A stretch of 4,010 nt of DNA. Source: a virus (taxonomy: Duplodnaviria; Heunggongvirae; Uroviricota; Caudoviricetes). A program made the position numbers and the translations under genes. Below are positions 1,515 to 2,372 of the stretch, in pieces. The stretch's first letter is position 1; the number at the start of each line of letters is the position of its first letter. The stretch covers positions 1 through 4,010 of the IMG/VR virus record IMGVR_UViG_2671180637_000010; one strand, written 5' to 3'. Below the pieces are notes generated by a model. The model was given only the letters and a program-made list of their open reading frames with translations, made no database searches and was not told the DNA's origin.

Positions 1515-2372
1515 TTATCGTTTATTTCTTTGATGTTTCTTTGCAGACTCAGCTTGAGTGTTTCCATACCTGCGTTTACCGCTATTGTTTTTTCCTCTAG
1601 GCTTGCCTTTTTTTCGATCTTCCCACCAGTCAGGTGCCGGGTCTGGCTCAACATGTAAAGCATCGGCAAGTCCTGATATCAAGCTGTATGACTGAACTCC
1701 ATCAATGTGCTCTGACAGTGATGGGGTAACATTCTGTCTTAGTGGATCAAGAATAAAATCAATACCTTTAATTCTGGCGTGTTTGGCGGCAGGCACAAAG
1801 TCTGAGTCCCCAGCAACAAGGACAATTACATCAACAAGTTTTTCATAAGCTAAAGTCGTGATATCCATCCCTAGCTTGATATCAACTTGTTTTTGTTTGA
1901 TGTCATAGTAAAAATCATCATTTGTCAGTTCATCCCATTTTTTCGTTCCTTTCATCAGAGCATCAAGGGAGAATGTAGTTAGTTGCCATCGCTTATTATC
2001 AACAAGATTCCCTAATCTTAAGGCTGTTTTTCGAGTTTTTCTTAACTCTTCATGCAGCTCCGTTCTCAGAATATATGATTTTTCGAGTTTGAAATTCTTG
2101 CGACCAGGCGTCTTATTGCCAGGCTCAGGAAGTGGAAGGCGTGTTTGAATGTCGAGTGGTGGACAGTCATAGAAGTAAATTCTATAAAGCTCAAGCGGTT
2201 CCCTACGTTCTTGTGATTGACGTTTTCCATTAAGATGGGAAAGAACCATTGACCATATTACTTTCATTATGCATTGCGCAGTCAGTTCATGCTCGGCGAA
2301 GTGTTTACGATGCGTAGCATGAACACGCTGCATGAAAAAACCCGCATCAATTAAAATTGCTGCTTTCTTCAT
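1515..2372 (-). CDS. NYN/LabA-like PIN-fold nuclease-domain protein (285 aa) with a Lys/Arg-rich C-terminal tail, in the position of lambda rexA-rexB
   Basis: Track ORF. N-terminus MKKAAILIDAGFF (Asp9 after a hydrophobic strand) and the block QVDIKLGMDITTLAYEKLVDVIVLVAGDSDFVPAAKHARIKGIDFIL (Asp164, Asp170, Asp189, Asp191) match the NYN/LabA signature as I know it. It lies between cI and the terminator/OL, same strand as cI. Confidence 0.8.
   Translation of the reverse strand: MKKAAILIDAGFFMQRVHATHRKHFAEHELTAQCIMKVIWSMVLSHLNGKRQSQERREPLELYRIYFYDCPPLDIQTRLPLPEPGNKTPGRKNFKLEKSYILRTELHEELRKTRKTALRLGNLVDNKRWQLTTFSLDALMKGTKKWDELTNDDFYYDIKQKQVDIKLGMDITTLAYEKLVDVIVLVAGDSDFVPAAKHARIKGIDFILDPLRQNVTPSLSEHIDGVQSYSLISGLADALHVEPDPAPDWWEDRKKGKPRGKNNSGKRRYGNTQAESAKKHQRNKR

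What the first reader, a model, noticed from the sequence alone, without database searches (positions are those of the whole stretch)
1515..1649. Lys/Arg-rich low-complexity C-terminal tail on the NYN-like protein
Residues about 250-285 (EDRKKGKPRGKNNSGKRRYGNTQAESAKKHQRNKR) contain 14 Lys/Arg in 35 positions and follow an acidic/Pro-rich linker (EPDPAPDWWED). NYN/LabA domains are normally compact, so this looks like an appended nucleic-acid-binding or regulatory tail. The stop codon sits 8 nt before the terminator hairpin, so the tail is unlikely to be read-through artefact.
Basis: inference. Interest (0 to 1): 0.4.

Follow-up and report, generated by a model that had tools for sequence, protein, structure and literature searches.

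The report
Basic disordered tail on prophage NYN nuclease
The lysine/arginine-rich end of this protein is real and is kept, in composition though not in sequence, across most close relatives; the protein is an uncharacterised nuclease-like gene that replaces the rexA-rexB exclusion genes of a lambda-type prophage, and the tail is an ordinary kind of floppy, positively charged extension whose role (probably holding RNA or DNA) has not been tested.

Summary
Residues 251-285 of the 285-aa ORF (window 1515-2372, minus strand) hold 8 Lys and 6 Arg (net +11), and the stop codon lies 7-9 nt upstream of an intrinsic terminator.

The window is a lambda-immunity prophage. A 985-bp cassette (1508-2492) carrying this single NYN-fold gene replaces rexA-rexB exactly, and the terminator is lambda's own T_IMM.

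Among 113 full-length homologues, P247, W249 and W250 are nearly invariant. The tail after WW has a median length of 25 aa. It is basic in 65 homologues, acidic in 35 (one Pseudomonas-like clade, often with an EPG motif) and short or neutral in 13. Tail sequence diverges much faster than the core while K+R stays near 0.42.

AlphaFold models residues 1-250 confidently, including the supposed "linker" EPDPAPDWW, and leaves 261-285 at pLDDT about 60. Of 100 full-length, more distant family representatives, 97 lack the WW motif and the long tail.

The tail is therefore a genuine, subfamily-specific disordered polycation. The most likely role is non-specific nucleic-acid tethering for a nuclease domain with no other binding module. 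A regulatory or docking role and compositional drift remain open. No experimental work on this family was found. Interest is modest.

The parts
1515..2372 (-). 285-aa NYN-fold (PIN-like) nuclease-like gene, stop codon included
1518..1622 (-). Codons for residues 251-285: the Lys/Arg-rich, predicted disordered tail (net +11)
   Evidence: Composition. pLDDT 83 for residues 251-260 and 57-64 for 261-285. Homologues keep basic tails at K+R about 0.42. The coding DNA is 50% A.
1623..1649 (-). Codons for residues 242-250, EPDPAPDWW: the conserved P-x-W-W cap at the end of the folded domain, not a linker
   Evidence: P247, W249 and W250 are conserved in at least 90% of 101 sequences. The block 241-250 has pLDDT 97.
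1476..1507 (-). Intrinsic terminator T_IMM of the lambda immunity operon (hairpin 1507-1486 plus U tract)
   Evidence: Terminator scan. Fold dG -14.5. Same stem as in lambda directly after rexB, with a different loop. T_IMM is described as immediately downstream of rexB in bioRxiv 10.1101/2021.04.19.439022.
1508..2492 (.). 985-bp cassette that replaces lambda rexA-rexB (lambda record positions about 35827-37218)
   Evidence: blastn of the window against lambda: homology ends at 1507 and resumes at 2493. The same DNA (window 1433-2518, 99.6%) lies downstream of a different cI in a Stx2a phage.
2500..3213 (-). Lambda cI repressor gene, directly upstream and co-oriented with the NYN gene; no terminator-like site lies between them
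   Evidence: ORF list. Lambda annotation. Terminator scan of 1100-2600 finds only T_IMM on this strand.
1608..1614 (-). A7 homopolymer inside the tail codons (CGA AAA AAA GGC). Loss of one A gives the frameshifted variant seen in database entry P0092.
1262..1290 (-). PL promoter (TTGACA-17-GATACT) downstream of T_IMM; marks the end of the immunity operon
   Evidence: Promoter scan. Homology to the lambda OL/PL region.

Best explanation
The tail is a genuine, translated, intrinsically disordered polycationic C-terminal extension of a single-gene NYN-fold (PIN-like) nuclease.

The gene is an accessory 'moron' cassette. In this lambda-immunity prophage it occupies exactly the rexA-rexB slot. It should therefore be transcribed with cI from PRM/PRE and terminated at T_IMM, which means it would be made in lysogens.

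The folded enzyme ends at the conserved P-x-W-W cap (residue 250). The following 35 residues are selected for charge rather than for sequence.

The most likely job of the tail is non-sequence-specific electrostatic tethering to nucleic acid: RNA, possibly ribosomal or other structured RNA, or DNA. This would raise the local substrate concentration for a catalytic domain that has no other nucleic-acid-binding module. In eukaryotic NYN proteins that role is played by KH, CCCH or LOTUS domains (own knowledge).

Shown here: the tail exists, its composition is conserved, it is predicted disordered, the protein has the NYN fold, the cassette has the stated borders, and the operon layout is as described.

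Inferred: expression in lysogens, nuclease activity, nucleic-acid binding by the tail, and any role in phage exclusion.
For: - The sequence and composition are confirmed.
- The identical protein occurs in phages ev099, 2B8, E212 and EC.P3, in about 48 Stx2a phages, and in 74 of 5426 complete E. coli genomes.
- Of 113 full-length homologues, 65 have tails with net charge of +5 or more and mean K+R 0.42. Tail class follows the core clusters, with 4 of 5 clusters basic.
- Tail identity decays to 0.42 where core identity is 0.8-0.9, and to about 0.25 at 0.4-0.5. This is typical of a disordered region selected for composition.
- Basic tails persist in a 63% G+C Halomonas locus and in Shewanella, with different codons.
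- AF2 gives pLDDT 97 for residues 241-250 and 57-64 for 261-285.
- There is no conserved neighbouring gene across seven different contexts: prophage ends next to integrases, the Q-lysis moron slot, an ICE-like element and chromosomal sites.
- The cassette borders and T_IMM are established. The cI-N interval is a known mosaic hotspot that also houses the defence genes rexAB and bstA (PMC8585504).
Against: - No binding, activity or phenotype data exist for any family member in the literature searched.
- A sister clade of 46 homologues (35 acidic-tailed, the rest almost all short or neutral) carries an acidic, also disordered tail, often with an EPG[VIL] motif. A few members have almost no tail. 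A polycation is therefore not obligatory for this enzyme.
- Shuffling the tail's own nucleotides already gives K+R 0.31 against the observed 0.40 (P = 0.11). The protein composition cannot be separated statistically from the A-richness of the DNA in this single sequence.
- The nearest defence-database model, HEC-09, is only a weak hit (E 2e-4), and HEC-09 itself gave no protection in tests.
Confidence: 0.5

Rival explanations
1. The tail is a regulatory, docking or localisation element rather than a substrate-binding arm. For example, it could bind a host or phage partner, anionic membrane or the nucleoid, control stability through proteolysis, or hold the nuclease inactive until infection.
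For: - The same position in the Pseudomonas-like clade carries an acidic tail with a conserved short motif ([DE]x[DE]PG[VIL]), which looks like a linear docking motif.
- That swap suggests the C-terminal extension is a general adaptor platform.
- A nuclease made constitutively in lysogens with no partner or antitoxin gene nearby needs some form of control.
- Acidic-tailed proteins have slightly more basic cores (+5.8 against +4.2, Mann-Whitney P 2e-5, not corrected for phylogeny).
Against: - AF2 docks neither tail onto the core: pLDDT is 57-64 for the basic tail and about 40 for the acidic one.
- The basic tails contain no conserved motif, only a conserved charge.
- No partner gene is conserved.
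Confidence: 0.28
2. The tail is a largely neutral by-product. The reading frame simply runs on through an A-rich 3' end until the first stop, and the A-richness automatically yields Lys, Arg and Asn codons.
For: - The tail DNA is 50% A against 32% in the core. Nucleotide shuffles that stay open give K+R 0.31 on average, and the observed 0.40 is not significant (P 0.11).
- Tail length varies from 2 to 46 residues, and sequence identity falls quickly.
- Tail-less members exist (P0046, P0120).
Against: - 64 of 67 proteins in four separate core clusters are basic. This includes hosts with very different G+C content, where the observed K+R exceeds the shuffles (P 0.02-0.04).
- Only 9-12% of shuffles of the 35-37-codon tails stay open.
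- The A-richness is confined to the tail and so itself needs an explanation.
- Hydrophobic residues are almost absent from the tails.
Confidence: 0.15
3. The tail is an artefact: a sequencing error, a frameshift or a misplaced stop, with the true protein ending near residue 250.
For: - An A7 run lies inside the tail codons.
- One database cluster (P0092, 9 member sequences) carries a 1-nt deletion there that switches to another frame.
- One RefSeq record annotates the identical DNA as two pieces.
Against: - The window's frame is the one shared by 65 basic-tailed homologues and by identical copies in many independent phage and chromosome assemblies.
- The frameshifted frame gives an unrelated 50-aa end that reads through the terminator.
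Confidence: 0.02

Closest known systems
NYN domains of MARF1 (PDB 5yaa) and the LabA-like protein VPA0982 (PDB 2qip)
   Different: Sequence identity is only 15-18%, and there is no sequence-level hit to any PDB chain. The query's folded part is about 250 aa, with about 100 extra residues of insertions, a C-terminal helix, the P-x-W-W cap and the basic tail. MARF1 pairs its NYN domain with LOTUS/RRM modules rather than a disordered tail (own knowledge).
Lambda RexA-RexB, and BstA of Salmonella prophage BTP1 (defence genes encoded downstream of cI)
   Same: They occupy the same genomic slot and orientation between cI and T_IMM/PL. The rex genes are replaced base-for-base by this cassette. This slot is described as a mosaic hotspot carrying abortive-infection genes (PMC8585504).
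   Different: There is no sequence or fold relationship. The query is one gene, not two, and a nuclease fold rather than a DNA-binding sensor plus a membrane protein. No exclusion phenotype is known for it.
HEC-09 (PADLOC candidate, NYN-domain protein embedded in Hma systems)
   Same: It is a single-gene NYN-domain candidate defence protein with MARF1-like aspartates, and it gives a weak profile hit (E 2e-4, residues 155-200).
   Different: The hit covers only the NYN core motif. HEC-09 has an N-terminal HTH-like domain and gave no defence against the phages tested. It is not the same family.
Lys/Arg-rich disordered tails of other RNA enzymes, e.g. the Lys-rich C-terminal tail of E. coli RNase R and arginine-rich segments of RNase E (own knowledge, not tested here)
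   Same: They are polycationic, low-complexity, poorly conserved in sequence, attached to a nuclease core, and implicated in RNA or ribosome binding and in regulation.
   Different: There is no homology. The analogy is by composition only, and nothing has been measured for the tail described here.

Membership tests
NYN domain (Pfam PF01936; PIN-like nuclease superfamily) | Profile match above the curated gathering score | tested here: met
   36.8 bits against a cutoff of 24.2, E 6.8e-9. Only residues 158-205 align.
NYN domain (Pfam PF01936; PIN-like nuclease superfamily) | Three-layer alpha/beta PIN-like fold superposable on solved NYN domains | tested here: met
NYN domain (Pfam PF01936; PIN-like nuclease superfamily) | Cluster of conserved acidic residues that bind the catalytic metal | tested here: inconclusive
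   D164, D170, D189 and D191 (GDSDF), D69 and D224 are invariant, and D9 is conserved in at least 90% of 101 homologues. Residue-by-residue equivalence to the MARF1 aspartates could not be checked, because there was no sequence alignment to PDB chains and no model coordinates to inspect.
NYN domain (Pfam PF01936; PIN-like nuclease superfamily) | Metal-dependent ribonuclease activity | not testable with these tools
   This needs biochemistry.
TIGR00288 family NYN proteins (NCBIfam) | Score above the curated cutoff | tested here: not met
   29.6 bits against a cutoff of 178.45.
HEC-09 / PADLOC NYN candidate defence proteins | Full-length profile match | tested here: not met
   E 2e-4 and 1.4e-3, covering only about 45 residues of the NYN core.
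Prophage immunity-region accessory (defence-type) genes such as rexAB and bstA | Located between the repressor gene and the operon terminator, co-oriented with the repressor | tested here: met
   The same arrangement is seen behind a different cI in a Stx2a phage.
Prophage immunity-region accessory (defence-type) genes such as rexAB and bstA | Expression in the lysogen and protection against superinfecting phage | not testable with these tools
   No transcript or plaque data were available, and no paper on this family was found.
Intrinsically disordered polycationic nucleic-acid-binding tails | Low-complexity, high net positive charge, low predicted order, composition conserved while sequence drifts | tested here: met
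Intrinsically disordered polycationic nucleic-acid-binding tails | Measured nucleic-acid binding that depends on the tail | not testable with these tools
   This needs EMSA or anisotropy with full-length and tail-deleted protein.

The most novel reading that the evidence does not exclude
The NYN gene could be a new single-gene, prophage-encoded abortive-infection or exclusion RNase that took over the rexAB slot. Its interchangeable disordered tail (basic in enterobacterial lineages, acidic with an EPG motif in Pseudomonas) would then be the targeting or sensing element. It might park the nuclease on ribosomes, the nucleoid or a partner, and set which invader or signal unleashes it.
Probability: 0.12. 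Interest if true: 0.6.

Novelty: new member of a known kind. Interest (0 to 1): 0.3.

Why it matters
The tail by itself is an ordinary feature. Charged disordered extensions on nucleic-acid enzymes are common.

Its value is as a handle on an uncharacterised but widespread accessory gene. A search found 7035 database proteins at E no greater than 1e-3, and the phage family PHROG 5783 is labelled 'unknown function'. The gene has repeatedly been captured by prophages at classic moron or defence positions, and here it replaces the rexAB exclusion system of lambda base-for-base.

The same cassette, at 99.6% identity, sits behind a different repressor in Stx2a-converting phages of pathogenic E. coli. 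If the protein proves to be a lysogen-expressed nuclease, tail deletion, charge neutralisation and basic-to-acidic tail swaps would be the simplest way to learn how it finds its substrate or is kept in check.

Tried and rejected
- **Wrong stop or frameshift artefact.** Rejected from homologues and identical copies. The one frameshifted database variant (P0092) is explained by loss of one A in the A7 run.
- **Tail or terminator as a known RNA element.** Rfam at E no greater than 0.1 found nothing anywhere in the window.
- **Sequence-level link to a solved structure.** A profile search of the PDB gave only a chance hit. The link comes from fold comparison only.
- **Membership in the PADLOC families HEC-09 and NYN, or in TIGR00288.** The hits are weak or below cutoff.
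- **Intramolecular docking of the tails.** AF2 gives low confidence for both the basic and the acidic tail, so there is no support for a folded-back autoinhibitory segment. Monomer AF2 is a weak test of this.
- **Separating protein-level from DNA-level composition.** Shuffling the tail nucleotides was inconclusive for the window itself (P 0.11) and weakly positive for three other hosts (P 0.02-0.04).
- **Literature.** Six full-text searches (NYN with prophage, defence, rexAB or antiphage terms; HEC-09; immunity region) found no characterisation of this family.
- **AFDB50 fold search.** The library was not available. The BFVD viral library gave only generic LabA/NYN hits.
- **A promoter-like site inside the cassette.** The site (2481..2453, TTGACG-17-TAGATT) is no more than chance would give: 2 were found against 2.9 expected.

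Full report
**What the window is**

The 4010-base window is the immunity region of a lambda-immunity lambdoid phage or prophage. It matches phage lambda at 97-98% identity over several elements:
- ral (window 1-440);
- most of N (692-959);
- the nutL-OL-PL region (1169-1507);
- cI, cro, cII and the start of O (2493-4010).

Between cI (2500-3213, minus strand) and the OL/PL side lambda has rexA and rexB. Here they are absent. Instead a 985-bp segment (1508-2492) carries one ORF of 285 aa (1515-2372, minus strand).

Phage ev099 (NC_049953) has the same arrangement and annotates the gene as 'NYN domain-containing protein'.

**Check of the observation**

The finding's coordinates 1515-1649 correspond to residues 242-285 plus the stop codon.
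- Residues 251-285 read EDRKKGKPRGKNNSGKRRYGNTQAESAKKHQRNKR: 8 K, 6 R and 3 D/E, net +11.
- Residues 242-252 read EPDPAPDWWED.
- K+R is 40% in the tail against 15% in the rest of the protein. The binomial P is 2.8e-4, and 3.2% of whole-protein shuffles reach the same maximum in some 35-residue window.
- The stop codon TAA is at 1517-1515. A hairpin at 1507-1486 (8 pairs, 6 G-C, dG -14.5 kcal/mol) followed by UUUUCUUUG lies 7-9 nt downstream.

**The terminator belongs to the phage backbone**

Homology to lambda resumes at window 1507, which is at lambda's rexB stop codon. The hairpin stem and U tract are the same as in lambda, and only the loop differs.

The intrinsic terminator immediately downstream of rexB is T_IMM, the terminator of the cI-rexA-rexB immunity operon (bioRxiv 10.1101/2021.04.19.439022).

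The cassette's right-hand recombination junction therefore falls within a few bases after the NYN stop codon, and the tail codons are entirely cassette DNA. No terminator-like site lies between cI and the NYN gene. By analogy with lambda, the gene should be co-transcribed with cI in lysogens. This is an inference and was not shown.

**The protein**

- Pfam finds NYN (PF01936) above its cutoff, but only over residues 158-205.
- NCBIfam TIGR00288 is far below its cutoff.
- PADLOC gives only weak partial hits to HEC-09 and to a LabA-like NYN model.
- PHROGs places the protein in phrog_5783, 'unknown function' (E 1.5e-119).

An AlphaFold2 model built on 101 homologues has mean pLDDT 91 and pTM 0.83.
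- Foldseek agrees.
- Only about 142-152 of the roughly 250 folded residues superpose. The domain is therefore an enlarged NYN fold and is not 'compact'.

Conserved residues in the family alignment include D164, D170, D189 and D191 (the GDSDF motif), D69 and D224, which are invariant, D9 (at least 90%), and several Arg, Lys and His residues. This is consistent with an active metal-dependent nuclease. I could not map these residues onto the MARF1 catalytic residues directly.

**The tail in homologues**

A search of 5.8 billion proteins found 7035 relatives at E no greater than 1e-3. I analysed the 113 full-length sequences among the best 120, which are at least 44% identical to the query.
- A P-x-W-W motif (query P247, W249, W250) is almost invariant.
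- The stretch after WW is 2-46 residues long, with a median of 25.
- It is basic (net +5 or more, mean K+R 0.42) in 65 sequences.
- It is acidic in 35 sequences and short or neutral in 13.

Tail class follows the core tree. Four of five core clusters are basic (64 of 67 proteins). One cluster of 46 sequences, largely Pseudomonas, is acidic or short. That cluster often carries a conserved [DE]x[DE]PG[VIL] motif about 20-25 residues after WW.

Tail sequence diverges far faster than the core. At 80-90% core identity, tail identity is 0.42. At 40-50% core identity it is 0.25, which is roughly the low-complexity baseline. Charge is retained throughout.

Among 50%-identity cluster representatives of the wider family, 97 of 100 full-length proteins lack WW. 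They end about 20 residues after the HxD motif, and the median net charge of that extension is +1.

The C-terminal helix, WW cap and long tail are therefore an addition specific to the query's subfamily.

**Order and disorder**

AF2 confidence is 97 for residues 241-250, 83 for 251-260, and 57-64 for 261-285.

The disordered part begins a few residues after WW.

A model of an acidic-tailed homologue (P0082, 46-sequence alignment) gives pLDDT of about 40 for its whole tail, including the EPG motif. Neither tail is predicted to fold back on the core, although a monomer prediction is a weak test of that idea.

**Protein-level or DNA-level composition**

The tail codons are 50% A and 11% T, against 32% A in the core.
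- Shuffling the tail nucleotides and keeping the open frames gives mean K+R of 0.31. The observed 0.40 is not significant (P 0.11).
- Only 12% of shuffles stay open over the 35 codons.
- In homologues from E. albertii, Halomonas (a locus of 63% G+C) and Shewanella, the observed K+R exceeds the shuffles with P of 0.02-0.04.

Each single test is weak. Together with 64 of 67 basic tails across four clusters, they favour selection for charge at the protein level. Drift in an A-rich 3' end cannot be excluded as a contributor.

**Genomic contexts**

The gene is always solitary, with no conserved partner. The contexts seen were:
- next to an unannotated 382-aa gene at one end of the prophage gene block, which I take to be the integrase end, in P. 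syringae;
- the prophage end next to the integrase in Halomonas, where the tail codons overlap the 3' end of the convergent integrase gene by 35 nt, and in Shewanella;
- the Q-lysis 'moron' slot, on the opposite strand, in an E. albertii-type lambdoid prophage;
- a KfrA/KorA-bearing mobile element next to higBA in P. aeruginosa;
- a variable region near toxin-antitoxin genes in Pantoea;
- a chromosomal site beside glmS in Proteus.

In a Stx2a-converting phage the same cassette lies downstream of a different cI (235 aa) and an extra 113-aa gene, again upstream of an N-like gene. The shared DNA corresponds to window 1433-2518 at 99.6% identity and includes the last 19 nt of lambda cI and T_IMM.

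In complete E. coli genomes, 74 of 5426 carry the whole cassette. About 200 others, mostly O157:H7, carry only the 5' half, in the cryptic prophage Sp1 in the one locus examined (strain Sakai).

The cI-N interval is a recognised mosaic hotspot that houses rexAB and bstA, both abortive-infection genes (PMC8585504, citing Degnan et al. 2007).

**Interpretation**

The tail is real, translated in the frame shown, predicted to be disordered, and maintained for positive charge in most of the subfamily.

The best-supported mechanism is that it acts as a non-specific electrostatic arm for nucleic acid, serving a nuclease domain that has no other binding module. In eukaryotic NYN proteins that role is filled by KH, CCCH or LOTUS domains, and Lys/Arg-rich tails do comparable work in RNase R and RNase E (own knowledge).

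The acidic-tailed sister clade with a conserved short motif argues that the C-terminal extension may more generally be a regulatory or docking platform. I give that rival substantial weight. Neutral drift is a minor rival, and an artefact is excluded.

That the gene is a lysogen-expressed exclusion or defence nuclease is suggested only by its position and mobility. The one related candidate tested in the literature (HEC-09, only distantly related) gave no protection. No paper on this family was found.

**Verdict**

The tail is an ordinary kind of feature on an uncharacterised but interesting accessory gene. I score interest at 0.3 and rate the novelty as 'new member of a known kind'.

Noticed in passing
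window 1508-2492 (against lambda 35827-37218); L011 2855-3939: The NYN cassette replaces rexA-rexB base-for-base between the end of cI and T_IMM. The same DNA, at 99.6% identity and including the last 19 nt of lambda cI, sits behind a different 235-aa cI plus a 113-aa phrog_3467 gene in Stx2a-converting phage Stx2_EH0505. The cassette has therefore moved between immunity regions.
   Followed up: partly
window 953-1084 (-): A 44-aa ORF (MTMNNEALKEMIAKLLEDARRIQ...) with an AGGAG ribosome-binding site is inserted between nutL boxB (1192-1206) and the N start codon (948). Neither lambda nor ev099 has this segment (window 960-1168). It matches phrog_32391, unknown function (E 3e-34).
   Followed up: partly
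window 441-691: The lambda sieB region is missing and is replaced by about 250 bp carrying a 45-aa Cys/Trp-rich ORF (473-607, minus strand; phrog_1871, unknown function). As a result, the last roughly 25 codons of N (616-691) differ from lambda N.
   Followed up: partly
L013 2459-2848 (E. coli O157:H7 Sakai prophage Sp1, ECs_0273): About 200 complete E. coli genomes, mostly O157:H7, keep only the first roughly 116 codons of the NYN gene fused to unrelated sequence. Both the catalytic half and the tail are lost in this cryptic lambda-immunity prophage.
   Followed up: partly
L012 3508-4365 (NZ_OZ501657.1): DNA identical to the window's cassette is annotated in RefSeq as a 146-aa 'NYN domain-containing protein' plus a 'PIN domain-containing protein' pseudogene, although the 285-aa ORF is intact. 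This is an annotation inconsistency.
   Followed up: yes
window 1608-1614 (A7 on the coding strand) and 1588-1593 (A6): There are homopolymer runs inside the tail codons. Deleting one A in the A7 run reproduces database variant P0092 (9 member sequences). Its frame gives an unrelated end that reads through T_IMM to window 1448. Whether this reflects sequencing error, decay or slippage is unknown.
   Followed up: partly
homologues P0048-P0093 (alignment A3), e.g. L003 6001-6825: A Pseudomonas-like clade has swapped the basic tail for an acidic, disordered one with a conserved [DE]x[DE]PG[VIL] motif about 20-25 residues after WW. It looks like a short linear docking motif.
   Followed up: partly
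L023 5770-5804 (Halomonas elongata): The last roughly 35 nt of the NYN gene, which are tail codons, overlap the 3' end of the convergent prophage integrase gene.
   Followed up: no
L011 6396-6852: The Stx2a phage record holds a second, internally deleted copy of the cassette (window 2279-2530 joined to 1420-1633). It lies beside a duplicated cI 3' fragment and an IS3-family transposase pair (4809-6022).
   Followed up: no
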